40,000 nucleotides of DNA, taken from Sulfuriferula plumbiphila (GTDB taxonomy: Bacteria; Pseudomonadota; Gammaproteobacteria; Burkholderiales; Sulfuriferulaceae). Under the pieces are notes generated by a model. The model saw only the letters and a list, made by a program, of their open reading frames with translations, was not told the origin of the DNA and did no database searches. The translations under genes and the position numbers were made by a program. This document shows positions 12,809-39,698 of the stretch, in pieces. The DNA lies in assembly GCF_009938015.1 (NCBI RefSeq), contig NZ_AP021884.1, positions 2,504,585 through 2,544,584 of the forward strand, written 5' to 3'. Positions within the stretch are counted from its first letter, which is position 1, and each line of letters opens with the position of its first letter.

Positions 12809-12969
12809 AATTAATTCTCTCCTTGAATTGCACAGACTCGGTTGGATTAGAGTGGCTCGCCAGCGCCGAGTCATTCGTTGGCTGACCACTTGTTTCAAGC
12901 CCTAACAGGCATTTCAAAATATCGAATATCCTGGACGCCTCCTTTGGGCTGGTTTGAAGACAATACTTC

Positions 12970-25049: not shown

Positions 25050-25217
25050 GTTTCCCGCCATAACGTACGAGTATCGCAAAGCGTAACCGAATCCACCCTT
25101 TCCTGTTTAATGTTTAACCTGATGTTCGCTTCCCTAGCCCATGCGGCCGAGGTCGAGGTAGAAAACGCCTGGATCCGTGCCCCTGAGTATTGCTCTTTTT
25201 TCTCAAGGCCGCTCTTA

Positions 25218-26490: not shown

Positions 26491-26961
26491 TCACAAATCT
26501 GATCGCTCTTTTGCACCGTTAGGTCGGCAATACCAGCTGAAGCCATGCTTCTCGAAGCCAAGCGATTCATAGAATTTATGCGCCCCTTCTCGTTTCAGAT
26601 GGCTCGATAAGGCGAGCTTGTAACAGCCTCTTTTTTTACAGCACGCCATCGCGAACCGCATCATCTTTTTTCCGATTCCTTTTCCTTGCCAATCGTCGGA
26701 AACGACAACATCTTCGACAATTCCAAAAGGCTTGCCGCCGTGCGCCAGGCTATCGATTATGATCAACGCGAAAGTACCGGCAATTACTCCGGCAGATTCA
26801 GCAATATAGACACGATAATCAGGATATTCCCGGTAGAGCAAAAATCGCAGCCGCGCTTTATCCAATGAAAGTTTTTTTGCAGGTCCGAATTCGAGCAGCA
26901 TATAAAGCTCAAGCAGCCGAGGCAGATCGGACAATACCGCTTCTCTAATGACGATTTTCAT
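26491..26961 (-). CDS. GNAT-family N-acetyltransferase
   Basis: The product is 156 aa. The acetyl-CoA loop WQGKGIGKKMM (Q/R-x-x-G-x-G/A) and a C-terminal YESLGF are present. Confidence 0.85.
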   Translation of the reverse strand: MKIVIREAVLSDLPRLLELYMLLEFGPAKKLSLDKARLRFLLYREYPDYRVYIAESAGVIAGTFALIIIDSLAHGGKPFGIVEDVVVSDDWQGKGIGKKMMRFAMACCKKRGCYKLALSSHLKREGAHKFYESLGFEKHGFSWYCRPNGAKERSDL

Positions 26962-27215: not shown

Positions 27216-28076
27216 TTAAATCTCAAGCTTAAGCACCCGTTTTGCATTCTGATAGAGCACCTGGTCCAGAACTTCCTCTCTGAAGCCCAGCTCCCTGTAG
27301 TCCTCCAGTGATTGCCCCATTGCACGGAAAGGATATGAACTGCCGAACATCAGCTGGTCCTTCATGAAACCGTTTGCGGCCTCGACATAAAGGTTTCCGC
27401 CCGGAAGGAAGATGTACATGTCGGGTACGAGGTAAACGTTCTCATAGCGGAAGGCGACCCCTATTATTTCATTCACATACGGATAAAATCCGTGGTAGCA
27501 AACGATCGACAGATTTGGGAATGCGCGTGCAATCCGGCCCACTGGGGCGGGGTCGGTCAGTTCGAGACTGGGGGATGTCGGCCCCGACATGATGCAAACA
27601 GGAACGCCCAGCTGGTCACAGGCGTCGTAGATCGGATACAGCAGCGGATCGTCGGCCTTCATGGGAGTGCTGGCAAACCCGGGTTCCAGATTAATGCCCT
27701 TCAGCCCCAGTGTCTTGATAGCCCGCTCTACTTCGGTAGCCGAACCATTAATGCCCACTGAGCCAATACCAACGAGCTCCTTGTGTCCTCCGGTTATTTC
27801 ACTGATCTGATCGTTGGAATGTCTGATCCCTGGAGTGTCGCGGCCCACCACCACGGCTGCCGTTATACCGGTTTCACGGATCTCCTCCACAAATCCCGCA
27901 ACGGTCTTCGACCGGGTAAAGTGCTCATCATCTTTTGAGCCCACCCGCCGGTTTAGCCATTTAACAACCTCATATTCCTTCGTACCAGGCGTTGCGCCAT
28001 AAAAATCGTGCAGGAATGAAGGCCTGCTGCGCATATCTATTACTTTTTTTACTTTTCCTATTACTTTCTTTACCAT
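27216..28076 (-). CDS. amidohydrolase_2-family (ACMSD/LigW-like TIM-barrel) protein
   Basis: The C-terminal signatures LMFGSSYPF and LYQNAKRVL and an internal CYHGF fit the family. The ATG at 28076 has GGGAGA 7 nt upstream. The N-terminal metal motif is atypical (IDMRSRP). Confidence 0.72.
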   Translation of the reverse strand: MVKKVIGKVKKVIDMRSRPSFLHDFYGATPGTKEYEVVKWLNRRVGSKDDEHFTRSKTVAGFVEEIRETGITAAVVVGRDTPGIRHSNDQISEITGGHKELVGIGSVGINGSATEVERAIKTLGLKGINLEPGFASTPMKADDPLLYPIYDACDQLGVPVCIMSGPTSPSLELTDPAPVGRIARAFPNLSIVCYHGFYPYVNEIIGVAFRYENVYLVPDMYIFLPGGNLYVEAANGFMKDQLMFGSSYPFRAMGQSLEDYRELGFREEVLDQVLYQNAKRVLKLEI

Positions 28077-28406
28077 TTCCAAATCTCCCTATCTTAAAAA
28101 ATCCGGTTCAGTGTCATAACCAGTGTCAACTTGCTTCAATGGCAACGCGCGAGGCGCGATGTCTCTTACCTACTTCTACCCAACTTTTCTGGAAAAAATT
28201 ACTCAATGGCTGCTTAGTACTTAATACCTGTTTAATGCTGGCATGCAGGCTCCTCGTTCCTGCTGCGCTAATTGACGGAAACGTATTACCTCCCAATCAA
28301 TTGGAGTCGACATGACAACCGCAGCTCCCGTCAAGTCCAGGGCTTTGCGTTGACGCCACAGATTGGCGACATTAATCTGGTGGCGCATCTCTTCCCGGTC
28401 GTCTTG

Positions 28407-28622
28407 TTATGTTCTTGCGCCGATGGCGACATGGAAAATACCTGCACCAATGAACAGAATCATGCTTGCAGCCATGAACACATAGGCAATAACATTCCAC
28501 CGCCTGACACTGGGTTCCGATGCTGTGCCTCGTGCCTGACACCACGAAGCAAGCACAGCGCAAACCCCGCCAAGAACCGCGAGGATAACTATCGTTGTAC
28601 GGCTGAATAACCAATCCATCAT
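28407..28622 (-). CDS. small two-TM membrane protein (hypothetical)
   Basis: The product is 71 aa with two clear hydrophobic helices separated by a basic loop (QARGTASEPSVRRW). It starts 26 nt after the ABC ATPase stop on the same strand. The SD is weak. Confidence 0.35.
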   Translation of the reverse strand: MMDWLFSRTTIVILAVLGGVCAVLASWCQARGTASEPSVRRWNVIAYVFMAASMILFIGAGIFHVAIGART

Positions 28623-28647
28623 AGCGACTCAATATCACACTCTTTGC

Positions 28648-29562
28648 TTAACTACCCGGGCCAGTCTTGTCCGCGCGTCTTGAATAGGCTTCAACGAAAT
28701 CAGTTGCTGCCTTACTTCCGCCCGCAAACGATTTCATCGCTTCCTCGTGCAGCAGGGACAAGGCTTCCGTCTTCACTTCATTCGCACGCTTACTGTCAAA
28801 CACGAAAGCCAACCGTCTCGGCCGGGGCAAGTCGACTTCAATCGTAGCCCGGACCTGTCCGGGAATATTGGTCATGATCAGCAAGCGGTCAGCCAGGAAG
28901 ATCGCCTCATCAATATCCGTCGTAACAAAGAAATTGGTTCTCCGCGACTCCTCGTAGAGTCCTGCGTAATATTCCCACATCAACTCCTTGGACATACAAT
29001 CCAGGCCACGAAATGGTTCATCAAGAATCATGACTTCGGGGTCATTGATCATTGCACGGGCTAGTTCAGCACGGCGCTGCATGCCGCCAGAGAGCTGCGG
29101 CGGATATTTATTCCGGAACGCTGTTAAACCCACCTTTTCAAGCAGAAATTTGGCCAGGTCACGGGCTTGTTGCGTATCCTCGCCGCGCGCTCTGGGTCCA
29201 TACATTATGTTGTCATAGGTTGTCATCCACGGAAACAAGGCAGATTCCTGGAACACAACCAGGCGATCTCGATCAGGGCCGGTTATTGGCTTTCCATTTA
29301 TTTTAATACTGCCGGTCGTAGGCTTTTCAAACCCGGCCAGAAGTCGTATCAACGTACTTTTACCGCAGCCCGATGGGCCAATCATCACGGTAAGTTTGTT
29401 GCGCTCGATGGTAAATGAGCAGTCCTTGACTACTTCCTTCGTAAACAGCCCAGCACCATATGACTTGCTGACATTGCTTACCGTGATTTCACCGGCACTG
29501 ACCTGCGGCCTCAGGCTAGCCGATGAATCAGACAGATCATGGGAGATATTTGTCATATTCAT
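28648..29562 (-). CDS. ABC transporter ATP-binding protein (NitT/TauT-type importer)
   Basis: It has Walker A GPSGCGKST, the signature LSGGMQRR and Walker B VMILDEPF. The second ATG at 29556 has better SD spacing (AAGGA plus 7 nt). Confidence 0.9.
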   Translation of the reverse strand: MNMTNISHDLSDSSASLRPQVSAGEITVSNVSKSYGAGLFTKEVVKDCSFTIERNKLTVMIGPSGCGKSTLIRLLAGFEKPTTGSIKINGKPITGPDRDRLVVFQESALFPWMTTYDNIMYGPRARGEDTQQARDLAKFLLEKVGLTAFRNKYPPQLSGGMQRRAELARAMINDPEVMILDEPFRGLDCMSKELMWEYYAGLYEESRRTNFFVTTDIDEAIFLADRLLIMTNIPGQVRATIEVDLPRPRRLAFVFDSKRANEVKTEALSLLHEEAMKSFAGGSKAATDFVEAYSRRADKTGPGS

Positions 29563-29567
29563 ATCCT

Positions 29568-30392
29568 TTATCGTTTCTTCAACCAGGGTGTGACGAAGCC
29601 GCCGAGCGCACGCAAGGTCGCGCTACAAAGATAACCAGCAACGCCGATGCTGATCATGCCCACAACAATCTGTGCGTAGGAACCGCCCACATAGGAGTTC
29701 CAGATAAAAAAGCCGAGCCCACCGCCTGATCCGCCCGCCTGGCTGCCGCCACCCGAAATCATTTCCGCTGCGACCACCACCTCCCAGGTAATCCCCATGC
29801 CTACTGCAGCTCCGACGACAATCGAAGGTAGTGTTGCGGGAAAAACGACACGGCGGAAAATATCCCACTGCGAGGCTCCCATTGCTTGAGCCGATTGAAA
29901 ATACCGGATGTCGATCGATTTTGCGCCACCCAGCACATTGATCACGACAGTAAAAAACGCACCGAGAAAGGTAACAAAGGTGATGGACAATTCCTGCGTC
30001 GGCCAAAAGATGATCGATGCGGGGACCCAAGCCAGCGGCGGGATCGGACGCAATAGCTCAAAGGACGGGAAGGCCAGACTTCTAAACGTTTTGCTTACTG
30101 CCATGAGCAGGCCGAAGGGAATACCAATCAACATGGCAACAAGGAATCCCGTCAAAACCCGGATCAGGCTCATATACCAGCTTTGCCAATATCCCGAATC
30201 GCCAACCAGTCCGATCCATGCTTTGAGTACAGCGGTTGGAGCGGGCACCTGACCAATCCATGGCAGAGCAAAGCCTAGCCACTGCTTGGACTGCGAGCCC
30301 GCTTCCCATAGCACCAGAAACGCGACAATGCCGACAATTCCGCGCAGGGTAGAGCGGCTAAATAGTGTTTTTTTAAATCTGTTGAGGTTCAT
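29568..30392 (-). CDS. ABC transporter permease (BPD_transp_1, NitT/TauT-type)
   Basis: The product is a 274-aa polytopic protein. The EAA-like loop region reads QSAQAMGASQWDIFRRVVFPATLP. Confidence 0.85.
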   Translation of the reverse strand: MNLNRFKKTLFSRSTLRGIVGIVAFLVLWEAGSQSKQWLGFALPWIGQVPAPTAVLKAWIGLVGDSGYWQSWYMSLIRVLTGFLVAMLIGIPFGLLMAVSKTFRSLAFPSFELLRPIPPLAWVPASIIFWPTQELSITFVTFLGAFFTVVINVLGGAKSIDIRYFQSAQAMGASQWDIFRRVVFPATLPSIVVGAAVGMGITWEVVVAAEMISGGGSQAGGSGGGLGFFIWNSYVGGSYAQIVVGMISIGVAGYLCSATLRALGGFVTPWLKKR

Positions 30393-30398
30393 GTTCGC

Positions 30399-31262
30399 CT
30401 ACCCTTCTTTTTCGCCTGCTGCAAAAGACTTCTTGGCTTCTTCATGCACGAGCTCTATGACTTCATCCATCAGTTCGCGATACCGTGCGCTGGTCAGTAC
30501 GCTGTAATCGCGTGGATGAGGGATGTCGATGTCAAGAATCTTCTTTGGCTTGCAAGGCCGCGAAGACATGATGACTACTCGGTGGCCGAGAAAAATCGCT
30601 TCTTCCAAATCGTGGGTGATAAAGAAAATGGTGACCTTGTTCTTGTAGTAAATTTCCAGCAATGCCTCATGCATTACCGACTTGGTAAGCGAGTCGAGTG
30701 CGCGGTAAGGCTCATCGAACAACAGCACCTTGGGGTCGTTCATCAATGCCCGGACAATTTCCACCCGGCGGCGCAAACCGGAGGAAACTTCGCCCGGATA
30801 ATTGTTTTCGGTGCCACCCAGTCCGGCATCAGCCATCATGTTGCGGGCTTTTTCATAGATTTCTTTTTTGCTCATCTTGCCTTGCATCAGAGGGCCGAAA
30901 GCAATGTTTTCCAGGTTGGTTTTCCACGGGAACAGTGCGCCGTTCTGAAACACCACAATGCGGTCTGAGCCCGGCTCTGCCATGGGTTTATCCGGGCCAC
31001 ACAAGAGCTTGTCATCGAGGTAAATCTTGCCGGATGTAATACTGTGAAACCCGGCAATCGCATTCAACAAAGTGGTTTTCCCGCAACCGGATGGCCCTAC
31101 AATCATGCAGATTTCTCCTGCCGAGATATCCAGCGAACAATGATCCACCGCCATCACTGCGGCGCCTTCCGGGTCATAGATTTTGACGACATCCTCGATC
31201 CGGATTGCGCCCTGCGATATGGCTTTTTCCGACTTTGCGCTTGTTTCCAGTACATAGCTCAT
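30399..31262 (-). CDS. ABC transporter ATP-binding protein (second, distinct NBD)
   Basis: It has Walker A GPSGCGKTT, the signature VSSGLRRR and Walker B LLFDEPY. The ATG at 31262 overlaps the upstream stop by 1 nt (TGATG). Confidence 0.9.
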   Translation of the reverse strand: MSYVLETSAKSEKAISQGAIRIEDVVKIYDPEGAAVMAVDHCSLDISAGEICMIVGPSGCGKTTLLNAIAGFHSITSGKIYLDDKLLCGPDKPMAEPGSDRIVVFQNGALFPWKTNLENIAFGPLMQGKMSKKEIYEKARNMMADAGLGGTENNYPGEVSSGLRRRVEIVRALMNDPKVLLFDEPYRALDSLTKSVMHEALLEIYYKNKVTIFFITHDLEEAIFLGHRVVIMSSRPCKPKKILDIDIPHPRDYSVLTSARYRELMDEVIELVHEEAKKSFAAGEKEG

Positions 31263-32599
31263 CAACGGCCTCCCAAGGCAAGTTCACGTACCCGCCACTG
31301 CATCATGTAATCACCGATCATGCGCACCAGGGCGCTGGTGGAATAGCCAACCGCGCCAAGGGTGATCATGCCGATCACGATCGTCGGATAGCGAACCATC
31401 GTATAGGATGTATTGATCAGATAGCCAAGCCCGAACTGGCCGGAAACCATTTCTCCCGCCACCAGTGAAAACCAGGCGACACCGACGGATATTTGCAGGC
31501 CGGTAAAAATGAACGGCATGGCGCCCGGCACAATCACTTCCCTGAAGGATTGCCACCGACTCGCACCCAGGCATGAGGCCGCCCGAATATAGGACTCGTC
31601 GATAGAATCGACGCCGAGCATGGTATTCAGGGCGGTGGCGAAAAAAGAAGCGAGAAAAGTAAGAAAAATGACCGGGGTTTCGGAGCCGCTGAACATCAAG
31701 ATTGCCAATGGCACCCACGCGAGAACAGGGATGGGACGCAGGGTTTCAAAAAGAGGAAAGATGTATTCGCGAAACTTCTTGGACCAGCCCAAAAACAATC
31801 CGAGCGGCACACCTAAAAGTGTTGCCAGGAAAAACGCAATCCCCACACGGCGAACGCTGATCCAGATGTCATGGTAATACTCGGGGGTATAAAGCGACAC
31901 ACCATAGACTGGATTTTTACTGAAAAGCTCTTTTACAACCACGGTCAGTCCAGGCATATCTTCGAAGCGGGGCAATTTCCAGACCTCGACAGCGAAGTAC
32001 CAAAAGCCCAATAGAATCGCGAATCCGGTGATCATCAGATAAGGATCAGGGCTCTTCACCCACTGCGACACGCGAAACAGCGTCAAGGTCAAGCCGGTTG
32101 CCATGGTAGCTTGCAGCTGGGGCAGAGTCTGCTCTCCGGGGGGAAAATGACGCACCTGCGTAGCCACTGCTTCCGGCAGGGTAAATTCCTTGTTGATCAT
32201 GGTGGCAAAGCGGCTCATGACAACATCGCCAATAGAAGGGGACGCCTTGAAAAGATTGATCAGATCCTCGCCGTTAATCCGGATAAGCTCAGTCCGTTCC
32301 AGGCAGACGGTTTTCGCCAAACGTTTGCGCTGGCCTTCGAGCACGGCTGCCCATCCGAACACGCCGCCGCTGTATACGGTTTTATCCGGATGGATCGCAT
32401 GAGCGTCTATTCCGAGAGTGTGCTGCACGCTGCCTGAGGACACAACGTATATATCTTCAGCCTTATCACCTATTTGATAAAGTACATCGCCCCGCGCGTG
32501 TGACTCCCACTTAGCAAGCCCGGCGATAGCCAGGAGCATACTGTCCGGCACCATCTGGAACGGCATTGTGCGTTTCAACAAGGCTATGAGTTGTTCCAT
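31262..32599 (-). CDS. fusion protein: N-terminal cyclic-nucleotide-binding-like (CAP effector) domain plus ABC transporter permease
   Basis: The start at 32599 has GGAGGA 4 nt upstream. Residues about 1-135 show a cNMP-domain pattern (ARGDVLYQIGDKAEDIYVVSSGSV ... GGVFGWAAVLEGQRKRLAKTVCLERTELIRINGEDL). The C-terminal ~290 aa form a NitT/TauT-type permease (RAASCLGASRWQSFREVIVPGAMP). Confidence 0.8.
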   Translation of the reverse strand: MEQLIALLKRTMPFQMVPDSMLLAIAGLAKWESHARGDVLYQIGDKAEDIYVVSSGSVQHTLGIDAHAIHPDKTVYSGGVFGWAAVLEGQRKRLAKTVCLERTELIRINGEDLINLFKASPSIGDVVMSRFATMINKEFTLPEAVATQVRHFPPGEQTLPQLQATMATGLTLTLFRVSQWVKSPDPYLMITGFAILLGFWYFAVEVWKLPRFEDMPGLTVVVKELFSKNPVYGVSLYTPEYYHDIWISVRRVGIAFFLATLLGVPLGLFLGWSKKFREYIFPLFETLRPIPVLAWVPLAILMFSGSETPVIFLTFLASFFATALNTMLGVDSIDESYIRAASCLGASRWQSFREVIVPGAMPFIFTGLQISVGVAWFSLVAGEMVSGQFGLGYLINTSYTMVRYPTIVIGMITLGAVGYSTSALVRMIGDYMMQWRVRELALGGR

Positions 32600-32627
32600 T
32601 AATCCTCCGTGTGGCATATTTTTGGAT

Positions 32628-33743
32628 TCATTTAGGGGCTTTGGAAACGTCTTGTGCCTGGATGCTCCCCAGAGGTAAGCGAACACCGGCGTCCTTGGCA
32701 ATCTTGCGTGCGACCGAGTCATCCAGCACACCCGCAGGTGCCTGATCCACGTTGATTATTTTGTTCTTGTAAAGAAACTGGTAGATGCCGACGAGTTGAT
32801 TACGAATACGGTCGTCGAAGACAAACGGCTTTTCGTCCTTGATCGGACTGCCACCAGCGTATGCGGGTATCCTGCCGTATTCGGAGAACCAGGCCATCGG
32901 GACGGTAATCCCGTTGGTCTGCCCTTTGACGATCTCGGCAACCTTGACCCAGTTTTTCGGGTTCAGCACGAAGCGCTGCGCTTCCAGTTCGGTCTTCAAC
33001 CAGTCTTCGACGATATCCGGCCGCTGCTTCATGAAATCTTCGCGCATCGCGATAAAGCCGGAATCGGGCATGCCGAACGTATTCCCGGTGACTGCGTATT
33101 TCGCGATTCCCTCGCCAACCAGGTTGCCGATTCTCGATGCCGTGGGTTCCCAGAGCACAACGGCATCGAGTTTCTTCGCGCGCATGTTGGTGCTAAGAAC
33201 CTCGAGCGACTGGTTCATGATCGCCGCCGGCTTGATTTTTGATTTCTCTATAACGTAGCCCAGAAAGCGATCCGCGCAACTGCCTTTCGGTGTTGCAATG
33301 GTCTTGCCATTCAGCCACTTGACGGCTTCTTCGGGGGATTTGAAGTTCGGTGCGTCGGCGCGCACCATAATCACATTGCAACGCTGTCCCGGAGAAAATC
33401 CGGTGTTGGCCACCAGCTTGATTTTGGCCACATCCTGCTTGGTCGTTGCCACTACCGCAGGCATGTCGCCGAGATAACCAATTTGTTGCTTACCCGCGAG
33501 CATTTGATTGACGATGATCGAACCTTGCAGACCACCCTGGAATTGGACCTCGCTACCGGGGGGCAAATATTTCTTCCACAGTCCCAATGCGCGGATTACC
33601 GCTGCCGAGTACGAAACAGTGTCGTAGGGCTGGTAACCGACAGTCAGCTTCACTGGTTCGGCCGCGCGCACTGCAGTCAGCTGGACAACATTGAAAATTA
33701 TCAGTGCTAACGCAAGCATGGCGGTTTTAGCGTGTGATTTCAT
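32628..33743 (-). CDS. periplasmic substrate-binding protein (NMT1/THI5-like, NitT/TauT family), copy 1
   Basis: The ATG at 33743 has AAGGAG upstream. The signal peptide is MKSHAKTAMLALALIIFNVVQLTAVRA. The motif MLAGKQQIGYLGDMPAVVATTK is shared with copy 2. Confidence 0.85.
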   Translation of the reverse strand: MKSHAKTAMLALALIIFNVVQLTAVRAAEPVKLTVGYQPYDTVSYSAAVIRALGLWKKYLPPGSEVQFQGGLQGSIIVNQMLAGKQQIGYLGDMPAVVATTKQDVAKIKLVANTGFSPGQRCNVIMVRADAPNFKSPEEAVKWLNGKTIATPKGSCADRFLGYVIEKSKIKPAAIMNQSLEVLSTNMRAKKLDAVVLWEPTASRIGNLVGEGIAKYAVTGNTFGMPDSGFIAMREDFMKQRPDIVEDWLKTELEAQRFVLNPKNWVKVAEIVKGQTNGITVPMAWFSEYGRIPAYAGGSPIKDEKPFVFDDRIRNQLVGIYQFLYKNKIINVDQAPAGVLDDSVARKIAKDAGVRLPLGSIQAQDVSKAPK

Positions 33744-33865
33744 TACAGCTCCTTGATTATTATTATTAACTCGGCCATCAAATCTGGCGTGCATTTCGCC
33801 CTCAAACCCGCATGAATAAAGGGCTAGCTTAAGCGATTTGATGGTCGGCTCTATAGATATGTGAG

Positions 33866-35014
33866 CTACTTGCCTTTGTAGTCGGTTTCAGGCAACGCCT
33901 TAATCACGCCAACCGGGGATGTGAGTCCGCGCTCCTTCAATATTGCCTGGGTAAACTCCGGCATGACAGCGTCCGGCCGCAGCTTGTCCACATCGATACT
34001 CTTGATGGAGTGAAGAAACTTGGTCGCCCTCGTGATCAGGTCCGAAGCTTCCGGAGTGATTGTATAAGGCAGCACTAGCCGTACTGGCGTACCACCCTGA
34101 GCATCCGGAATCCTGCCGTACAGGGCACTCCACAGCTCCTTCTCTTTAAATCCGGTGGTTTGCGCCAACACCATGCGGATTACTGCATCGGCATTCTTCG
34201 GGTCCGCCATGTATTGCTCTGCATCCAGCTCTGCATTGAGCCACGCCTTGACCACATCCGGGCGCTGTTTGATGAGGTCGGCGCGCATCACCAGGAACGC
34301 GCCGTCGTGTTCATTCACCGCATTGCCGGACGCAATACGCTTGGCGAGACCTTCTGCCACCAGACGCGACGCGGTTGGCTCCCAGATGACCGCAGCATCG
34401 ATCTTGCCGACCCGAAAACCGCTGGTAATGACTTCAATGTTTTGATTCAGATAAGCCGAAGGCTTAACACCCATTTTCTCGAACACGGCTTGCGCGAAAC
34501 GGTCTGCGCAGGCGCCCTTGGGCACCGCCACCTGTTTTCCGTTCAGCCAATTGATGGCCTCTTTCTGATTGGCAAACTTCGGGGCGTCGGTTCTTGCGAG
34601 AAAGTTGTTGCATTGATCAACGCCCAAACCCACTGTCGCAACGATGCGCAAATCCGCGACATTCTCTTTGGTGGTAGAGACGATAGCCGGCATGTCTCCC
34701 ATGTAACCGATTTGCTGTTTGCCGGCGAGCATTGCATTGACGATAATGGCACCCTGCAAGCCGACCGCGAACTCCACGGTTGATCCCTTGGGCAAGTATT
34801 TTTCATAAAACTTCATGGGCCGCATCACCACACCGGACCAGGACTCCGTATAGTAAGGCTGGTAACCCACCACCAAATGGACTGGACTCCCCACCTTGCC
34901 GTAATCCAGTTCACCCGCGAACGCGGAAGACACGCTGCCCCCCGCGGTAAAGCCAAAAATCGTGGCCAAGACTACTAACGTGACACGTACCCATCGATTA
35001 ATAAAGCATGCCAT
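33866..35014 (-). CDS. periplasmic substrate-binding protein (NMT1/THI5-like, NitT/TauT family), copy 2 (paralogue)
   Basis: AGGAGGAG lies 6 nt upstream of the ATG. The signal peptide ends SSAFA. By eye roughly half of the residues are identical to copy 1 (VGYQPY, MLAGKQQIGYMGDMPA, WLNGK, PKGACADRF, WEPTASR). Confidence 0.85.
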   Translation of the reverse strand: MACFINRWVRVTLVVLATIFGFTAGGSVSSAFAGELDYGKVGSPVHLVVGYQPYYTESWSGVVMRPMKFYEKYLPKGSTVEFAVGLQGAIIVNAMLAGKQQIGYMGDMPAIVSTTKENVADLRIVATVGLGVDQCNNFLARTDAPKFANQKEAINWLNGKQVAVPKGACADRFAQAVFEKMGVKPSAYLNQNIEVITSGFRVGKIDAAVIWEPTASRLVAEGLAKRIASGNAVNEHDGAFLVMRADLIKQRPDVVKAWLNAELDAEQYMADPKNADAVIRMVLAQTTGFKEKELWSALYGRIPDAQGGTPVRLVLPYTITPEASDLITRATKFLHSIKSIDVDKLRPDAVMPEFTQAILKERGLTSPVGVIKALPETDYKGK

Positions 35015-35152
35015 GATGAACTCCTCCTATTGTTAAATACTTCCCAAATAGGGTCGTATTAAAAATACGCTTCTTTGTTAGTTCCCGTTCGTATCCAGAT
35101 GAGGTGGGAACTGACGTTGGCGTAAAATCTCCTTAGCAAGTTAAAGCTTGGG

Positions 35153-35878
35153 CTATTTTTCCCCCGGGGAGCCCAGATGCCGGGTGATCAGGGTCGAAAG
35201 CTTGCGCATGACGAGATACCCGGAAGCCGGATCAGATTCGAGGACTTTCAGGGTTTCCTCGCCGTTCAGTCGCAGCAGAGCCGACTTTTCCAGGCAGGTA
35301 GCTTTGGCAATGCGGCGGGGTTGATGCTCGAGCAGCGCCGCCCAGCCGAACACCTCGCCTTTGCGCAGAACAAAACCGGCGGGGCTGGTACCATCGCGGC
35401 CAATGAGAAATTCGACGCGGCCAGATTCAAGAATATAGAGATCGTCAGTCGGATCACCGATGTTGTAGAGGGTGCTGCCGCTTTCGTATTCTTCGCGACA
35501 TGCGAGCTGATCAAGCCTTTGCAGCGTATCGTCAGAAATGTCCATAAACAACTGCGCCGCTTTCAGCGCGCTGGATTGCAGCACGAATATCTCACCATCC
35601 TCGACCTTGACTTCGTATTTTTCCAGAGGGGCTTCGGCGAGACCAAGCGCTTTCCCGGTAGTAATATCCCACTGCCATAAATGCTGGTGACAGGTGAGCA
35701 CCGCGCCATCATAATATCCTTCGGCCAGACAGACTTCCTGGTGGGGGCAAATGCCTTGATAAGCGTAATAGCAGTCTCCGGCGTTGGCGATCAGGACTTT
35801 CAGCCCACCTTCAATGTCATAGTCCTTCATCCCGTTGGTAGGAATTTCGGCCGAATTGCATATGCGTATCTTGCTCAT
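35153..35878 (-). CDS. fusion protein: Rieske [2Fe-2S] ferredoxin plus C-terminal cyclic-nucleotide-binding-like (CAP effector) domain
   Basis: The Rieske motif is C44-P-H46 ... C63-H-Q-H66 (CxH-x16-CxxH) within about 100 aa, the size of a ferredoxin. Residues about 105-235 show the cNMP-domain pattern (SGSTLYNIGDPTDDLYILESGRV ... GEVFGWAALLEHQPRRIAKATCLEKSALLRLNGEETL). Confidence 0.8.
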   Translation of the reverse strand: MSKIRICNSAEIPTNGMKDYDIEGGLKVLIANAGDCYYAYQGICPHQEVCLAEGYYDGAVLTCHQHLWQWDITTGKALGLAEAPLEKYEVKVEDGEIFVLQSSALKAAQLFMDISDDTLQRLDQLACREEYESGSTLYNIGDPTDDLYILESGRVEFLIGRDGTSPAGFVLRKGEVFGWAALLEHQPRRIAKATCLEKSALLRLNGEETLKVLESDPASGYLVMRKLSTLITRHLGSPGEK

Positions 35879-35887
35879 ACCGCATTC

Positions 35888-36925
35888 CTAACTGAATTTG
35901 TCATAGCAAATATTATCGGTGGTCAATCTCGCCTGTAGCAGTATGCGGACGGCAGCATCCACCATCGGTGGTGGGCCGGCGAGATAGGCCCTGACGTTTT
36001 GATAGCGGTCTTGCATATGACGTCCCGCTACCTCGTGCACAAAACCCTTGTCAAACGCCAGTTGCGGATAGTCAGCCAGGGCGGAGGCGGGTGCATCCTC
36101 TCTTGACAGGGCGATGGTTATATTCAGTTTGTCGCCGCACTGGGCGCGTAACTGGGAGAATTCATGGAGAAAAAAGGCGTCCTTCATTGTTTGCACCCCG
36201 AAGAACACATCACCCTTATATTGAGTGAAATAGCCGTCCTGCGCAGCCCGCGACAGAATGGACATCATTCCGGCGATGCCGCTGCCACCGGCGATACAAA
36301 GAATGTTTTTGGCCAGGCTCGGATAAAAAGTCGCGCGCCCCAAAGGACCGAATAGTTCAACTTCCACGCCCTCGCACTGGTTATTGAACAGCCATTCGGA
36401 AATACCTCCTCCGGGCTTTTTCTTGACAACAAAGTTGAGCGTTTCCGCATGACGCTGATAATTCACCATGGACCAGCCGCGAAAGCCTGCCACTCCGGGC
36501 ACCTGGATCATCACAAACTGGCCGGCGTCAAACTCCATCGCCTGGTTCAGGTCGATCTGGAGATGAATCACATCAGGAGTCAAAAGCTTTACAGAGCTTA
36601 TACGCCCGTTTATTGAGGCAGGCACACAGGCACCTGCACCCATGGTCTGGACAAAGCTTGACACTTCAATTGAGACGTCAGTTTTAGCTGTACACTGACA
36701 CATCAGAAACTCGTCCTGACCTTTCAGATACTTGCGCCCTGGAGCCTCGGGCCAGGGATCAGAAATCTCCCCTGAGATCAACCGGGCTTTACATGTTCCA
36801 CACGTTCCACTACCACATTCATAAGGCAGGTCGACAGCGCTACTCAACCCGGCATAGAGTATTTTTTTGCCATCAGCAGCATCAAAATGATGTGCCCGGT
36901 TTCTGGCGTTGAGCTGGATTTTCAT
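35888..36925 (-). CDS. oxygenase reductase component: plant-type [2Fe-2S] ferredoxin domain plus FAD/NAD(P)-binding FNR-like domains
   Basis: The N-terminal motif is CGSGTCGTCKARL ... C. There follow an FNR-like RxWS-type FAD region (FRGWSMVN) and the NAD loop CIAGGSGIAGM. The product is 345 aa. Confidence 0.88.
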   Translation of the reverse strand: MKIQLNARNRAHHFDAADGKKILYAGLSSAVDLPYECGSGTCGTCKARLISGEISDPWPEAPGRKYLKGQDEFLMCQCTAKTDVSIEVSSFVQTMGAGACVPASINGRISSVKLLTPDVIHLQIDLNQAMEFDAGQFVMIQVPGVAGFRGWSMVNYQRHAETLNFVVKKKPGGGISEWLFNNQCEGVEVELFGPLGRATFYPSLAKNILCIAGGSGIAGMMSILSRAAQDGYFTQYKGDVFFGVQTMKDAFFLHEFSQLRAQCGDKLNITIALSREDAPASALADYPQLAFDKGFVHEVAGRHMQDRYQNVRAYLAGPPPMVDAAVRILLQARLTTDNICYDKFS

Positions 36926-36949
36926 GGTGTTGTTCGGCGCAGGGGCTTA

Positions 36950-37411
36950 TCAGAATGGAATGTGAGAGCCGAAACCGAACAGCCGCGTATCAAGGCGGAT
37001 ATTGCGATCCAGCAATTTCGGGCCGCCGTCCCCAAGTGCGATAGTGTCGTAAACTTTACCCACCACAAACAGCTCGGTTGCACCGCCGTCAAGCGATGTC
37101 TTGAAGACCTGCAGCGCGCTGATCACTTTGGCTTGTTGCCTGGCTTCGTCGTGGTCAACTATATACACCGTGGCGTGACGGCTGAGCGGCGAATGGTCGC
37201 TGTTGTGCTTGGGTAGATTATCGAATAACGTCTTCATCCCCGCCTTGTCATGCTCAAGCCAGGTCATTTCTTTGCGGATTTCCGGACTGTAGGCGGTAAT
37301 GGCATAGTGAAACGCCGGATCGCACAATTCCAGGTAACCCGCAAAGTCCTTGGCGTCCAATGCAAGGCAAGATCGGTAAATTAGCTCATTGATAGATTGT
37401 TTGGGTTCCAC
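36950..37411 (-). CDS. aromatic-ring-hydroxylating oxygenase beta (small) subunit, NTF2-like
   Basis: The product is 153 aa with a typical N-terminal helix (INELIYRSCLALDAKDFAGYLELC) and lies directly downstream of the alpha subunit. The GTG start has AGAGGA 5 nt upstream. Confidence 0.85.
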   Translation of the reverse strand: MEPKQSINELIYRSCLALDAKDFAGYLELCDPAFHYAITAYSPEIRKEMTWLEHDKAGMKTLFDNLPKHNSDHSPLSRHATVYIVDHDEARQQAKVISALQVFKTSLDGGATELFVVGKVYDTIALGDGGPKLLDRNIRLDTRLFGFGSHIPF

Positions 37412-37459
37412 GCTAATCCTCTATAAAGTAATGAAATGAAAGTTTGCGAATAGATGCAC

Positions 37460-38668
37460 TCACGCCGCAGCGGAGTCCTCTTTTTTAACATAGGGATCGG
37501 ATGCCATGCGCCCCATGCGCTTGCTCCACTCGGCGTAAAAATGCCGCATTCCAATCTCATCGTGTATCGTCGAATTTTCTTCACGACCATGAATAACCCA
37601 TTTGCTGTCGGTACGCTCACGCATGGCCAGTCCCTGCCCATGCACCGCCAATAGATCTTCATGCAGGTTGCGACCGAACGGCCCCCATATCTGGTTGTGA
37701 TCGCGGATCCGCTCGGCGCGCTGCTCGGGCGTGTCGCTCTTCAGCCCCAGCCCGCGGAACTCGATAAGCAGTTTGTTCGGTCCCAAAGGAATGGCCGTGT
37801 CCATACGCAACACCGAGGTGCGCAGGTTGTAAGTCATGCCGGGGAAAATATCGATCAGTATCCAGCCACCTGGCGCCAACCCCGGCCAACCCACACCGCG
37901 CTCCTTGCTGCCTTCGTAAGCATCGTATTTGATCGCCATTGAACCCACTGACGCGTGACCATTCGGATAACCTGTGTACTTGCGATCAAAGTAGCCTGGT
38001 TGGATCATGCCAGTGATGCGGTTGAAGTAGTGTACGTAGTCATGATAGAACTCGCTGTTGGTGTCATGCCACAGCTTGTAATTGGTGTTGACGATCGCCT
38101 TGTGATAATGGATGACCTCCAAAGGCATGCTGAGATTCTCGTCCAGCATCCCCATCGCATCGCCTATGTATTCCTCCAGCGTGCAGCTATCATCATCCAC
38201 ATTTACCCAGACGAAGCCGCCGTAGCCGATTGCGCTTTTGACTTCGCGCAGACCAGCGTCCTTGCAGCCGAAGCGTTCTTGATAGCCTTCCTTGCCGCGG
38301 GTAATATCTATGCAATCCCCTTTGGGATTAAATGACCAGGCATGAAAAATACAGGTGATGCGTTTGGCGTTGCCGACGGGATCGTAGAGGAGCGTGTTGC
38401 CGCGGTGCGGACAGATGTTGTAGAAGCTGCGCACTTTCATGTCTTCGCCGCGAATAACGAAGATTGGCTCGCCACCCGGATGGCTGAAAGTCCGGTAATC
38501 GTAGGCGTTCGGCAGTTCCGATTCGTGACAGGCGATAATCCAGCACTTATTAAAAATCTTTTCCTGTTCCTCCCGGAAAATCTGTTCGTCGGTATAAATC
38601 CCGGTATCTACAAAATGAGTAGGAGGAAATTTTGGTCTTTCTTTCCATTCAATTTCAGTGCGCGACAT
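37460..38668 (-). CDS. Rieske non-haem-iron oxygenase alpha (large) subunit
   Basis: The start at 38668 has AAGGAG 8 nt upstream. The Rieske motif is CPHRG-x16-CIFHAW. The catalytic-domain His-rich segment is NSEFYHDYVHYF. The product is 402 aa. Confidence 0.9.
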   Translation of the reverse strand: MSRTEIEWKERPKFPPTHFVDTGIYTDEQIFREEQEKIFNKCWIIACHESELPNAYDYRTFSHPGGEPIFVIRGEDMKVRSFYNICPHRGNTLLYDPVGNAKRITCIFHAWSFNPKGDCIDITRGKEGYQERFGCKDAGLREVKSAIGYGGFVWVNVDDDSCTLEEYIGDAMGMLDENLSMPLEVIHYHKAIVNTNYKLWHDTNSEFYHDYVHYFNRITGMIQPGYFDRKYTGYPNGHASVGSMAIKYDAYEGSKERGVGWPGLAPGGWILIDIFPGMTYNLRTSVLRMDTAIPLGPNKLLIEFRGLGLKSDTPEQRAERIRDHNQIWGPFGRNLHEDLLAVHGQGLAMRERTDSKWVIHGREENSTIHDEIGMRHFYAEWSKRMGRMASDPYVKKEDSAAA

Positions 38669-38750
38669 TCTTTGGCTCCTTGGATACGTTAAGGAAAAAA
38701 CATCATAGCTATCAATGAGAGACGAATAAGCGTCGTCTATGCAGGCATAA

Positions 38751-38766
38751 AGCATAGTCTGTGCCA
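38751..38766 (-). promoter_or_regulatory. candidate sigma-54 (-24/-12) promoter of the oxygenase/ABC operon
   Basis: The minus strand reads TGGCACAGACTATGCT. TGGCAC is perfect and the GG-N10-GC spacing is exact. The predicted TSS near 38740 lies about 70 nt upstream of the alpha-subunit ATG. Confidence 0.5.
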
Positions 38767-39055
38767 GGTCGATTTAATTGGCTTCGTGTACAGCGCCACT
38801 AGCGTCACTGCCGTTATGGAAGATATCATCAGGCCAAAACGCGCCAAGTTGTTGCTACGTGTCATGACAGAGTGCGTCAAATCTGTAACAGCAACCCGCT
38901 TTATGGCGCGCCCGTGCCAGGATAGTTTGTAAGGTGTTTTTTTGGCATCACCACCACCATCATGAGGGTCGGAGTGCTGCCATGTCATGCATGTCTATGG
39001 CTCGCAAAGAAGCCATCCTTAATAAAATGCTGTTAACCAAACCACCGCCGATCAG

Positions 39056-39690: not shown

Positions 39691-39698
39691 ATATTATT

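What the first reader, a model, noticed from the sequence alone, without database searches (positions are those of the whole stretch)
28407..38766. One unusual sensor-like domain is fused to both the importer permease and the oxygenase ferredoxin of the same operon
Seen in sequence:
- A single minus-strand gene string runs: sigma-54-type promoter, Rieske oxygenase alpha, beta, Fd-FNR reductase, Rieske ferredoxin, 2 SBPs, permease, ATPase, permease, ATPase, small membrane ORF.
- Two of its proteins carry a CAP-effector (cNMP-binding-like) domain. It is at the C-terminus of the Rieske ferredoxin and at the N-terminus of one permease.
- The two domains are clearly closer to each other than to generic cNMP domains. 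Both have GxVFGWAA(L/V)LExQx(R/K)R(I/L)AK(A/T)xCLExxxL(L/I)R(L/I)NGE(E/D).

Established knowledge:
- In canonical cAMP/cGMP binders the phosphate-binding cassette reads FGE(L/I)A(L/I)...R(S/T)A.
- Here the ribose-contacting Glu is replaced by Trp and the R(S/T)A by R(I/L)A.
- This kind of divergence is seen in CAP-fold proteins that bind other ligands.

Inference:
- The same small molecule may allosterically gate both uptake and electron delivery to the oxygenase. This would be post-translational feed-forward or feedback control of a catabolic module.
- That molecule could be the substrate, a product or a nucleotide.
- I know of no described system with this paired architecture.
Basis: partly seen in the sequence, partly recalled or inferred. 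Interest (0 to 1): 0.8.

Follow-up and report, generated by a model that had tools for sequence, protein, structure and literature searches.

The report
Sensor domains on methanesulfonate importer and ferredoxin
A methanesulfonate-type uptake-and-oxidation operon of Sulfuriferula carries the same unusual, probably non-nucleotide "CAP" sensor domain on both its importer permease and its Rieske ferredoxin; the arrangement is conserved in many sulfur-oxidising and methylotrophic bacteria and I found no description of it, which suggests direct protein-level control of a pathway that releases toxic sulfite and formaldehyde.

Summary
The minus-strand operon (28407-38766) encodes:
- a sigma-54-type promoter;
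- an MsmA-like Rieske oxygenase alpha/beta pair;
- an Fd-FNR reductase;
- a Rieske ferredoxin with a C-terminal CAP domain;
- two SsuA-type binding proteins;
- a CAP-permease;
- ATPase, permease, ATPase;
- a conserved 2-TM ORF.

Both CAP domains pass Pfam PF00027. They are 38% identical to each other (E 1e-27), against about 23% to CRP.

Both fusions are intact in about 80 and about 55 other genomes, and 50 of 53 neighbouring permeases carry the CAP.

The system is an msmABCD/msmEFGH-like methanesulfonate cluster, not an aromatic one. Its neighbours handle sulfite and formaldehyde.

The CAP domains belong to a distinct "FGW" subfamily in which the ribose-binding Glu is always Trp, the Arg is kept and Ser/Thr is replaced by Ile/Leu/Met. 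Wherever a readable context was obtained, it was an msm-type cluster. The subfamily also occurs as free ~150-aa proteins.

The two fusions arose independently. Their pockets differ at two positions, and the oxygenase-side CAP can occur without the permease CAP.

Post-translational sensing of a pathway metabolite is the best reading, but it is untested. "One shared ligand" is not established.

The parts
38751..38766 (-). Sigma-54-type -24/-12 promoter element TGGCAC-N5-ATGCT, 98 nt upstream of the likely alpha start
   Evidence: Sequence read. The same element type lies 55-98 nt upstream of the alpha gene in 21/62 related loci, background 0.018 per 300 nt.
37460..38668 (-). MsmA-like Rieske oxygenase alpha subunit, short-spacer type (CPH-X17-CIFH); likely start at Met30 of the listed ORF
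   Evidence: Pfam Rieske + Ring_hydroxyl_A. Homologs at 74-88% identity are named methanesulfonate monooxygenase large subunit by JGI. Spacer count. Closest solved structure is terephthalate dioxygenase alpha, E 8e-31.
36950..37411 (-). Oxygenase beta subunit (MsmB-like)
   Evidence: Pfam Ring_hydroxyl_B 33 bits; conserved in all related loci.
35888..36925 (-). Reductase (MsmD-like): plant-type 2Fe-2S + FAD + NAD domains
   Evidence: Pfam Fer2, FAD_binding_6, NAD_binding_1. It is followed by an Fd-CAP gene, or in split clusters by a CAP-only gene, in every locus where the reductase gene is in view.
35579..35878 (-). Rieske ferredoxin domain of the Fd-CAP protein (aa 1-100; ligands C44, H46, C63, H66; CXH-X16-CXXH)
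   Evidence: Pfam Rieske 47.9 bits. Ligands invariant in 16 homologs. The AF2 model superposes on T4moC: target-normalised TM 0.85, 35% identity.
35156..35572 (-). FGW-type CAP domain fused to the ferredoxin C-terminus (aa 103-241); cassette FGWAALLEHQPRRIAKATC
   Evidence: PF00027 58.4 bits. CAP fold matches CRP, GlxR and Dnr structures at 20-28% identity. Fixed-length junction in 77/80 homologs.
33866..35014 (-). Periplasmic binding protein 1 (MsmE-like, NMT1/SsuA family)
   Evidence: Pfam NMT1_2, NCBIfam SsuA_fam. 66-70% identical to the binding protein of clusters with canonical X26 MsmA.
32628..33794 (-). Periplasmic binding protein 2 (paralog; present in only a few related loci)
   Evidence: Pfam NMT1_2. 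Found only in L058, L068, L073, L091 and L092.
32150..32599 (-). FGW-type CAP domain at the N-terminus of the permease (aa 1-150); cassette FGWAAVLEGQRKRLAKTVC
   Evidence: PF00027 40.9 bits. Start codon and GGAGGA. AF2 pLDDT about 80 for this domain only.
31262..32149 (-). Linker (40-51 aa, variable in length) plus the MsmF-like BPD_transp_1 membrane domain of the CAP-permease
   Evidence: Pfam BPD_transp_1 94.8 bits. Linker statistics; linker pLDDT below 50.
30399..31265 (-). ABC ATPase 1 (MsmG-like)
   Evidence: Pfam ABC_tran 102.8 bits.
29568..30392 (-). Second permease (MsmH-like), without a CAP domain
   Evidence: Pfam BPD_transp_1 75 bits; no CAP HMM hit.
28648..29562 (-). ABC ATPase 2
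   Evidence: Pfam ABC_tran 120.6 bits.
28407..28622 (-). Small 71-aa two-helix membrane ORF
   Evidence: ORF. tblastn hits just downstream of the second ATPase gene in 20 of the related loci, 35-71% identity.
27216..28082 (-). Amidohydrolase_2-family protein, conserved downstream of the transporter
   Evidence: Pfam PF04909 79 bits. 66-89% identical copies at the same position in most loci.
26491..26961 (-). GNAT acetyltransferase, often conserved with the cluster
   Evidence: Pfam Acetyltransf_1; present in many related loci.
25110..25970 (+). TauE/SafE-family anion (sulfite) exporter linked to the cluster
   Evidence: Pfam TauE 128.8 bits. A TauE gene lies near the operon in most loci.

Best explanation
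SHOWN. The window (Sulfuriferula plumbiphila) carries an msmABCD/msmEFGH-type cluster for uptake and oxygenolytic cleavage of methanesulfonate, or of a very similar small sulfonate, to formaldehyde and sulfite. Two of its proteins bear a CAP-fold domain of one distinct "FGW" subfamily: the Rieske ferredoxin and the MsmF-type permease. Wherever enough context could be read, this subfamily sat in msm-type clusters. There it occurs:
- fused to a Rieske ferredoxin;
- fused to the permease, sometimes in tandem;
- as a free ~150-aa protein after the reductase gene, next to TauE, or among C1-folate genes.

INFERRED. These domains are cytoplasmic small-molecule sensors that no longer bind cAMP or cGMP. 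They more likely bind an anionic pathway metabolite: methanesulfonate itself, or sulfite/hydroxymethanesulfonate.
- The permease-borne copy, tethered by a 40-51-aa flexible linker, would throttle import from the inside. This resembles trans-inhibition in MetNI and ModBC.
- The ferredoxin-borne copy is joined rigidly to the Rieske domain and always sits next to the reductase gene. It would permit or block electron flow from reductase to oxygenase.

Together they would match uptake and NADH consumption to the cell's capacity to dispose of two toxic products. Each CAP probably acts on its own carrier. The two need not bind the same ligand.
For: Identity of the pathway
- JGI/KEGG names alpha homologs (74-88% identity) as methanesulfonate monooxygenase.
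- Gene order matches msmA-B-(C)-D and msmE-F-G-H plus a second ATPase, as described for Filomicrobium and Methylosulfonomonas (PMC4433239).
- The same reductase-FdCAP-transporter module (about 65-80% identity) sits behind canonical X26-spacer MsmA in six gammaproteobacterial loci.
- Neighbours deal with the predicted products. These are TauE; a molybdopterin oxidoreductase trio resembling SoeABC (L018), and FolD plus a GcvT-like protein (L056); FTHFS; and a full H4MPT/methanofuran formaldehyde-oxidation cluster in window 1-24 kb.

The CAP subfamily
- All single-domain hits above about 95 bits in 1.84 billion representatives whose cassette could be read have Trp at the Glu position, with two exceptions. 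Canonical FGE domains score at most 62 bits per domain.
- Trp (for Glu72), Arg82 and Ala84 are 100% conserved in 163 domains. Ser83 is replaced by Ile, Leu or Met.
- No such cassette appears among the 30 described CNB families.

Conservation of the fusions and their co-occurrence.

Free CAP genes in msm clusters.

Linker geometry.
Against: - No ligand, binding or gating has been measured.
- Nothing shows that the X17 short-spacer oxygenase clade oxidises methanesulfonate. PMC4433239 says so explicitly, and in Methyloversatilis the genes were silent on methanol and methylamine.
- Pocket positions differ between the clades.
- Structure searches gave only generic CAP matches and no ligand clue.
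- The sample of loci was collected through the Fd-CAP itself, so the co-occurrence figures are conditional on it. Three further free-CAP contexts were on contigs too short to read.
- In some loci the free CAP gene follows a sigma-54 activator gene. At least that clade could instead act on transcription.
Confidence: 0.5

Rival explanations
1. The CAP domains are genuine cAMP/cGMP (or other cyclic nucleotide) receptors. They would impose second-messenger (catabolite-type) control directly on transport and electron transfer.
For: - Both domains pass the Pfam cNMP_binding threshold.
- The phosphate-contacting Arg and the Gly of the cassette are invariant.
- Epac binds cAMP with Gln instead of Glu in the cassette (PBC table in PMC2246266), so the Glu is not absolutely required.
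Against: - The ribose-contacting Glu is Trp in 163/163 domains and the Ser/Thr is hydrophobic.
- None of the nucleotide-binding families listed in PMC2246266 has such a cassette.
- The subfamily was found only in one metabolic gene cluster type, not spread as a global second-messenger receptor would be.
Confidence: 0.12
2. The CAP domains are ligand-independent docking or dimerisation modules. They would hold the ferredoxin (and thus the oxygenase) at the importer, and the free CAP at TauE, forming a membrane-associated metabolon so that the substrate is oxidised as it enters.
For: - CAP domains commonly dimerise through their C-helix (established knowledge).
- The C-helix pattern is shared by all three clades.
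- Only one of the two permeases carries a CAP, so it lacks a partner within the transporter.
- Tandem CAP-CAP permeases exist (L057).
- 50/53 co-occurrence.
Against: - Oxygenase-side CAPs occur with CAP-less permeases (L026, L069, L073, L096) and without any adjacent transporter (L034, L078).
- The invariant Trp and Arg of the cassette point to a conserved ligand pocket rather than a mere interface.
Confidence: 0.18
3. The Fd-CAP is not the working ferredoxin. It would be a redox-plus-ligand sensor that regulates the reductase or a sigma-54 activator, and the free CAPs likewise act on transcription factors.
For: - Clusters with canonical MsmA keep a plain MsmC ferredoxin in addition to the Fd-CAP.
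- The CAP or Fd-CAP gene always directly follows the reductase gene.
- Free CAP genes follow a sigma-54 activator gene in L010 and L018, and activator genes lie near CAP/TauE in about ten loci.
Against: - In the window and in the 62 X17-type alpha genes counted there is no other Rieske ferredoxin in the operon, while characterised MSAMO needs all four components (PMC4433239).
- The Rieske ligands are invariant, and the N-terminal domain is a close structural match to T4moC.
- The protein has no DNA-binding domain.
Confidence: 0.15
4. The fusions are assembly or frameshift artefacts, or decaying remnants without function.
For: The operon lies in a low-GC island next to IS remnants.
Against: - Identical architectures occur in about 80 independent genomes and in more than 1000 protein clusters.
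- Domain junctions are conserved.
- Sequence conservation of the CAP domains is high.
Confidence: 0.01

Closest known systems
Methanesulfonate monooxygenase MsmABCD with the MsmEFGH importer (Methylosulfonomonas methylovora M2, Marinosulfonomonas, Filomicrobium; PMC4433239)
   Same: - Four-component Rieske oxygenase (alpha, beta, Rieske ferredoxin, Fer2-FNR reductase).
- NitT/TauT-family importer with the order SBP-permease-ATPase-permease(-ATPase).
- Neighbouring sulfite-exporter and C1-folate genes.
- KEGG-based annotation of alpha homologs as MsmA.
   Different: - The characterised alphaproteobacterial systems have a plain 125-aa MsmC and a 295-aa MsmF without CAP domains (gene coordinates in PMC4433239).
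- The window alpha has the X17 Rieske spacer, not the diagnostic X26.
- Activity of the X17 clade on methanesulfonate is unproven.
CRP/FNR-superfamily effector (CAP/CNB) domains that sense non-nucleotide ligands (CooA haem/CO, NtcA 2-oxoglutarate, CprK chlorophenols, PrfA glutathione)
   Same: Same fold (Foldseek matches to CRP, GlxR, Dnr and NtcA). The phosphate-binding cassette has diverged, which implies a different ligand.
   Different: - Those are transcription factors with a C-terminal HTH. Here the domain is fused to an electron carrier or a transporter, or stands alone.
- The FGW cassette is not among the 30 described CNB families.
Trans-inhibited or domain-regulated ABC importers (MetNI C2 domain, ModBC, cyanobacterial NrtC C-terminal domain, OpuA CBS domains)
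   Same: A cytoplasmic ligand-binding domain attached to an ABC importer that could shut down uptake according to the internal state (mechanism recalled from established knowledge, not tested here).
   Different: - In those systems the regulatory domain sits on the ATPase. Here it is on the N-terminus of one permease.
- Here it is a CAP fold.
- A paralogous domain is on the cognate catabolic enzyme system.
Rieske ferredoxins of class III oxygenases and diiron monooxygenases (T4moC, CarAc, BphF, NDO ferredoxin)
   Same: The N-terminal 100 aa share fold, cluster ligands and size (35% identity to T4moC, target-normalised TM 0.85). It is paired with a Fer2-FNR reductase, as in naphthalene dioxygenase.
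   Different: To my knowledge none of these carries an appended sensor domain.
CNB-domain-gated membrane or compartment proteins (MloK1/SthK channels, family 2B encapsulins with an inserted CNB domain)
   Same: A CNB/CAP domain directly controlling a non-transcriptional protein. NCBIfam encap_f2b gave weak hits to both CAPs, and 9bhu appears in the fold search.
   Different: Those bind cAMP through canonical cassettes. They have different partner proteins and no pairing across a pathway.

Membership tests
Pfam cNMP_binding (CAP/CNB fold) | Significant match to PF00027 and a beta-barrel plus C-helix fold | tested here: met
   58.4 and 40.9 bits against a cutoff of 27.5. The AF2 model matches CRP, GlxR and Dnr structures.
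Functional cyclic-nucleotide receptors | Phosphate-binding cassette G-E-x-A-L ... R-[ST]-A, with Glu contacting the ribose 2'-OH and Arg plus Ser/Thr contacting the phosphate | tested here: not met
   Glu is replaced by Trp in 163/163 domains and Ser/Thr by Ile, Leu or Met. Arg and Ala are retained.
Functional cyclic-nucleotide receptors | Measured binding of cAMP or cGMP | not testable with these tools
   Needs ITC or thermal shift on the isolated domains.
Rieske-type ferredoxin | CXH-X15-17-CXXH cluster ligands in a ~100-aa soluble domain | tested here: met
   C44-P-H46-X16-C63-H-Q-H66, invariant in 16 homologs. Pfam Rieske 47.9 bits. T4moC superposition at rmsd 2.1 A.
Methanesulfonate monooxygenase (MSAMO, MsmABCD) | Four components: alpha, beta, Rieske ferredoxin, Fer2-FAD-NAD reductase | tested here: met
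   All four are encoded consecutively.
Methanesulfonate monooxygenase (MSAMO, MsmABCD) | 26-residue spacer in the MsmA Rieske motif (CXH-X26-CXXH), held to be diagnostic (PMC4433239) | tested here: not met
   The window alpha has X17. Six loci that share the window's reductase-FdCAP-transporter module (L026, L029, L038, L040, L042, L048) and two split clusters with a free CAP after the reductase (L081, L085) have X26.
Methanesulfonate monooxygenase (MSAMO, MsmABCD) | Conversion of methanesulfonate to formaldehyde and sulfite | not testable with these tools
   Only contextual support: TauE, a SoeABC-like trio, FolD/GcvT/FTHFS, and an H4MPT cluster.
NitT/TauT-family ABC importer (MsmEFGH-like) | NMT1/SsuA-type binding protein, BPD_transp_1 permeases, ABC_tran ATPases | tested here: met
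   Pfam and NCBIfam hits for all six proteins.
Sigma-54-dependent promoter | GG-N10-GC (-24/-12) element at a suitable distance from the gene, conserved among orthologous loci | tested here: met
   TGGCAC-N5-ATGCT at -98. Present in 21/62 loci, against a background of 0.018 per 300 nt.
Sigma-54-dependent promoter | A cognate enhancer-binding activator | tested here: inconclusive
   A sigma-54 activator, cut by the window edge (1-1224), is 50% identical to the msm-adjacent activator of L038. It lies 37 kb away.

The most novel reading that the evidence does not exclude
A pathway-dedicated, non-nucleotide CAP sensor family binds methanesulfonate or its toxic product sulfite. By being grafted onto the importer, onto the electron carrier and (as a free subunit) onto the exporter side, it coordinates uptake, oxygenase electron supply and product disposal entirely at the protein level. 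This would include the first ligand-gated ferredoxin.
Probability: 0.3. Interest if true: 0.85.

Novelty: new variant of a known kind. Interest (0 to 1): 0.68.

Why it matters
- **Sulfur cycle.** Methanesulfonate is a major intermediate of the atmospheric and marine sulfur cycle. The beta- and gammaproteobacterial msm-like clusters (Thiobacillus, Sulfuriferula, Methyloversatilis, Methylibium, Thiodiazotropha symbionts) are abundant in metagenomes but uncharacterised.
- **Rieske oxygenases.** A sensor domain on a Rieske ferredoxin would be a new way to control these enzymes. It could prevent uncoupled NADH and O2 consumption, and prevent sulfite and formaldehyde poisoning.
- **ABC importers.** A CAP domain on an importer permease would add a new class of regulated importer.
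- **A handle on the pathway.** The FGW signature gives a simple marker for this pathway type. Its ligand, once found, would probably reveal the true substrate or product of the debated short-spacer "MsmA" clade.
- **Engineering.** The domain could be reused as a biosensor module.

Tried and rejected
1. **Aromatic-ring dioxygenase reading.** The closest solved structure is terephthalate dioxygenase. NCBIfam gives only partial hits far below cutoff. Annotation of homologs and all neighbours point to a C1-sulfonate system instead.
2. **Frameshift or assembly artefact.** Rejected by conservation.
3. **Obligatory CAP-CAP pairing between ferredoxin and permease.** Rejected as a general rule, because L026, L069, L073 and L096 have an oxygenase-side CAP with a CAP-less permease.
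4. **The two window CAPs as a recent duplicate pair.** An unbootstrapped NJ tree and bit scores place each nearer to a different free CAP class.
5. **AF2 model of the CAP-permease.** Mean pLDDT 54 and the membrane part unreliable. It was used only to note a folded CAP and a disordered linker.
6. **Foldseek of the Fd-CAP model.** It gave generic CAP and Rieske matches and no ligand clue.
7. **Contexts of P0390, P0416 and P0401.** The contigs were too short to say anything.
8. **The 88-aa ORF 28372-28638.** Dropped in favour of the overlapping 71-aa 2-TM ORF, which is the conserved one.
9. **Literature searches for a described Rieske-CAP or CAP-permease system.** They found nothing.

Full report
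**1. What is in the sequence**

The window is from Sulfuriferula plumbiphila: the ferredoxin fusion is 100% identical to hypothetical protein TPL01_10760.

- a sigma-54-like -24/-12 element, TGGCAC-N5-ATGCT, at 38766-38751;
- a Rieske oxygenase alpha subunit. The ORF runs 37460-38755, but its first ATG lies inside the promoter element, so Met30 at 38668 is the likely start;
- a beta subunit (36950-37411);
- a Fer2-FAD-NAD reductase (35888-36925);
- a 241-aa protein with an N-terminal Rieske domain and a C-terminal cNMP_binding domain (35153-35878);
- two NMT1/SsuA-type periplasmic binding proteins (33866-35014, 32628-33794);
- a permease with an N-terminal cNMP_binding domain (31262-32599; start ATG preceded by GGAGGA);
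- an ATPase, a second permease without a CAP, and a second ATPase;
- a 71-aa two-helix membrane ORF (28407-28622).

The -24/-12 element recurs 55-98 nt upstream of the alpha gene in 21 of 62 related loci, against a background of 0.018 per 300 nt. The small ORF is conserved just downstream of the second ATPase gene in 20 of the related loci.

**2. The two CAP domains**

- Both pass the Pfam gathering threshold: 58.4 and 40.9 bits against 27.5.
- In domain-only BLASTP they score 98.6 bits against each other. Against E. coli CRP they score 31 and 23 bits.
- Against two canonical FGE-type domains taken from the 1.84-billion-protein search, the ferredoxin CAP scores 54 bits against both. The permease CAP scores 57 bits against one and gives no hit against the other.

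The observation, including "closer to each other than to generic cNMP domains", is therefore confirmed.

**3. The fusions are real and widespread**

- The Rieske-CAP protein has 1308 database relatives. The top 120 clusters, at 66% identity or more, all carry both Pfam domains.
- The top 120 permease relatives all carry cNMP_binding plus BPD_transp_1.
- A scan of one genome per species found 183 genomes with a relative of the ferredoxin fusion. They include Thiobacillus thioparus DSM 505, T. denitrificans DSM 12475, Methyloversatilis universalis FAM5, Methylibium, Glaciimonas immobilis, Candidatus Thiodiazotropha and Arenicellales.
- In the 80 loci fetched, the order alpha-beta-reductase-FdCAP-SBP-CAPpermease-ATPase-permease-ATPase, usually followed by amidohydrolase_2 and GNAT genes, is conserved.
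- Of 55 loci with enough sequence after the Fd-CAP gene, 53 have the permease. In 50 of those it carries the CAP domain.
- The Rieske-to-CAP spacing is identical in 77 of 80 proteins. The permease CAP is joined to the membrane domain by a 40-51-residue linker of variable length, which is also disordered in the AF2 model.

A sequencing or frameshift artefact is excluded.

**4. What the operon is**

The closest solved oxygenase is terephthalate dioxygenase, but only at E 8e-31. NCBIfam aromatic dioxygenase models are hit far below their cutoffs.

Homologs of the alpha subunit at 74-88% identity are named "methanesulfonate monooxygenase large subunit" by JGI. The gene order equals msmA-B-(C)-D plus msmE-F-G-H and a second ATPase, as in characterised methanesulfonate (MSA) degraders (PMC4433239).

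That paper states that proven MsmA proteins have a diagnostic CXH-X26-CXXH Rieske motif. It also notes that proteins annotated as MsmA in Methylibium, Methyloversatilis and Thiobacillus have an X17 spacer and no proven activity. The window alpha belongs to this X17 clade. Among the alpha genes in the loci, 62 have X17 and 8 have X26.

Six gammaproteobacterial loci, for example L038 from Thiodiazotropha, combine the following:
- a canonical X26 MsmA, MsmB and a plain 125-aa ferredoxin MsmC;
- then the same reductase, Fd-CAP, binding protein (66-70% identical to the window's) and, in five of the six, a CAP-permease as in the window.

The CAP-bearing module therefore serves both MsmA types. The high similarity of the binding proteins argues that the transported substrate is the same or very similar.

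The surroundings fit the products of MSA cleavage, formaldehyde and sulfite:
- a TauE/SafE exporter lies near the operon in the window (25110-25970) and in most loci;
- L018 has a molybdopterin oxidoreductase, a 4Fe-4S protein and a DmsC-type anchor, resembling the cytoplasmic sulfite dehydrogenase SoeABC;
- L056 has two FolD genes and a GcvT-like folate protein;
- other clusters have formate-THF ligase and 5-formyl-THF cyclo-ligase;
- window positions 1-24 kb encode a complete H4MPT/methanofuran formaldehyde-oxidation module: Fae, Mch, MtdB, FhcA/C/D and cofactor-biosynthesis genes.

I conclude that this is an MSA-type (C1 or small sulfonate) uptake-and-oxidation cluster. The caveat is that activity of the X17 clade is unproven. 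In Methyloversatilis the "methanesulfonate" genes were not expressed on methanol or methylamine (PMC5023235).

**5. The CAP domains form a distinct subfamily tied to this pathway**

A profile of the two CAP types was searched against 1.84 billion representative proteins.
- All single-domain hits above about 95 bits whose cassette could be read have Trp at the Glu position, with two exceptions. The preceding residue is usually Phe (FGW), occasionally Leu, Ile, Val or Tyr. A number of further hits had cassettes my pattern could not read.
- Canonical FGE domains reach at most 62 bits per domain.

Mapped onto E. coli CRP, across 163 domains:
- the ribose-contacting Glu72 is Trp in 100%;
- the phosphate-contacting Arg82 and Ala84 are kept in 100%;
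- Ser83 is Ile, Leu or Met.

None of the 30 CNB families classified by Kannan et al. has such a cassette, or a Rieske or importer-permease partner (PMC2246266).

Besides the two fusions, the subfamily contains many free CAP-only proteins of about 150-190 aa. Every context long enough to read was an msm-type cluster:
- directly upstream of TauE: 14 of 31 TauE genes on the same strand, and 5 more convergent;
- directly after the reductase gene, in clusters with X26 MsmA and a plain ferredoxin. This is in effect a "split" Fd-CAP (L081, L085, L095, L096);
- between 5-formyl-THF cyclo-ligase and FTHFS, upstream of an X17 alpha that is 80% identical to the window's (L088-L090).

Tandem CAP-CAP-permeases also exist (L057, P0129-P0135).

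An NJ tree without bootstrap support groups the permease CAPs with the FTHFS-adjacent free CAPs. It groups the ferredoxin CAPs with the reductase-adjacent free CAPs, and the TauE-adjacent ones form a clade of their own. Bit scores agree: the Fd CAP scores 116 bits against the reductase-adjacent free CAP and 98.6 against the permease CAP. The two fusions in the window are therefore independent recruitments of paralogs, not a recent duplication.

**6. How it probably works**

Shown:
- an intact Rieske ferredoxin domain. Its ligands are invariant and it is a close structural match to T4moC;
- that domain is rigidly joined to a CAP domain;
- a CAP domain without a signal peptide sits at the N-terminus of one of two permeases, tethered by a flexible linker;
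- the cassette retains the anion-binding Arg but has lost the ribose-binding Glu;
- the subfamily is strictly associated with one pathway, in fused and free forms.

Inferred:
- the CAPs sense a pathway metabolite rather than a cyclic nucleotide;
- given the retained Arg, the new Trp and the chemistry of the pathway, methanesulfonate or sulfite/hydroxymethanesulfonate are the most economical candidates;
- on the importer the domain would act like the trans-inhibition domains of MetNI or ModBC;
- on the ferredoxin it would switch electron delivery from the adjacent reductase to the oxygenase. This would avoid uncoupled turnover and overproduction of sulfite and formaldehyde.

I put about 0.5 on this overall reading.

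**7.

The claim that the same molecule gates both proteins is not established.
- Pocket positions equivalent to CRP Val49 and Ser62 are Phe/Phe in the ferredoxin clade. They are His (100%) and Lys (73%) in the permease clade, and Phe plus Gln/Asp/Glu in the TauE-adjacent clade.
- An oxygenase-side CAP occurs with CAP-less permeases (L026, L069, L073, L096) or with no adjacent transporter (L034, L078). The two are therefore separable.
- This also argues against an obligatory CAP-CAP heterodimer that tethers the ferredoxin to the importer. A facultative docking role remains a rival.
- Where canonical MsmA is present, a plain MsmC coexists with the Fd-CAP. There the fusion may be a regulator rather than the main carrier.
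- Some free CAP genes follow sigma-54 activator genes. A transcriptional role is possible for that clade.

**8. Novelty**

Full-text searches found no description of a Rieske-CAP ferredoxin, a CAP-fused NitT/TauT permease, or CAP proteins in msm clusters. The msm papers describe only plain MsmC and MsmF.

The building blocks are all known: MSAMO-type oxygenase, ABC importer, CAP fold, and regulatory domains on importers. I therefore class this as a new variant of a known kind. The truly unusual element is a sensor domain on an electron-transfer ferredoxin, together with paralogs of the same domain distributed over import, oxidation and export functions of one pathway.

**9. Caveats**

- The loci were collected through the Fd-CAP, so co-occurrence is conditional on it.
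- The tree has no support values.
- Names from JGI are similarity-based.
- The AF2 models are of moderate (78.7) and low (54.3) confidence and gave no ligand information.
- No experiment supports any ligand.

Noticed in passing
window 1-24200: A complete H4MPT/methanofuran-dependent formaldehyde-oxidation and cofactor-biosynthesis cluster sits at about 62% GC, directly beside the ~52% GC msm-like island. Assigned genes: Fae 12296-12898, Mch 14741-15709, MtdB 16875-17777, FhcA 20328-21992, FhcD 21935-22885, FhcC-like about 22504-23688, 4-HFC-P synthase 4035-4730 and a PLP decarboxylase 4742-6103. ATP-grasp, CitG-like and GHMP-kinase genes are also present.
   Followed up: partly
window 38800-40000: The region upstream of the operon has no long ORF. 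An IS5-family transposase gene starts at about 39781 on the + strand (MKQTTLNLDLSLKRTRKREFLEQ...) and runs off the window. GC falls from about 0.62 to about 0.52 from about 25 kb onward, which suggests that the msm-like cluster is a horizontally acquired island.
   Followed up: partly
window 1-1224 (+): A sigma-54 enhancer-binding activator is cut by the window edge. It is 50% identical, over its whole visible length, to the GAF-sigma54 activator that sits beside the msm cluster in Thiodiazotropha (L038 2979-4919). It could be the activator of the 38766 promoter, although it lies 37 kb away.
   Followed up: partly
window 32628-33794 and 33866-35014: The window has two paralogous SsuA-type binding proteins, whereas most related loci have one. 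The second type recurs only in L058, L068, L073, L091 and L092. This may broaden the substrate range.
   Followed up: no
window 27216-28082 and 26491-26961: An amidohydrolase_2 gene (66-89% identical across loci, including those with canonical X26 MsmA) and a GNAT acetyltransferase travel with the transporter. Neither has an obvious role in methanesulfonate cleavage.
   Followed up: no
L057 12016-13941; proteins P0129, P0130, P0134, P0135: Permease variants of 616-625 aa carry two tandem FGW-type CAP domains ahead of the membrane domain.
   Followed up: partly
L002 4219-6009 and L054 1969-3900: A second alpha/beta oxygenase pair (about 60% identical to the main pair, also with the X17 spacer) lies next to the main operon, without a reductase or ferredoxin of its own. 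It may share the electron-transfer components to act on another substrate.
   Followed up: no
L018 2044-7129; L056 16238-19140: In L018 a molybdopterin oxidoreductase, a 4Fe-4S protein and a DmsC-type anchor (resembling SoeABC sulfite dehydrogenase) lie beside the operon. In L056 two FolD genes and a GcvT-like folate protein lie beside it.
   Followed up: partly
L038 8427-8804 and equivalent genes in L026, L029, L040, L042, L048: Clusters with canonical X26 MsmA carry a plain MsmC ferredoxin, which in L038 ends in a very acidic C-terminal tail, in addition to the Fd-CAP. They therefore have two Rieske ferredoxins in one operon.
   Followed up: partly
window 28407-28622 (-): The 71-aa two-helix ORF after the last ATPase is conserved in at least 20 loci. 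Its only Pfam hit is faint (Sdh_cyt, E 7e-4, below cutoff). Function unknown.
   Followed up: partly
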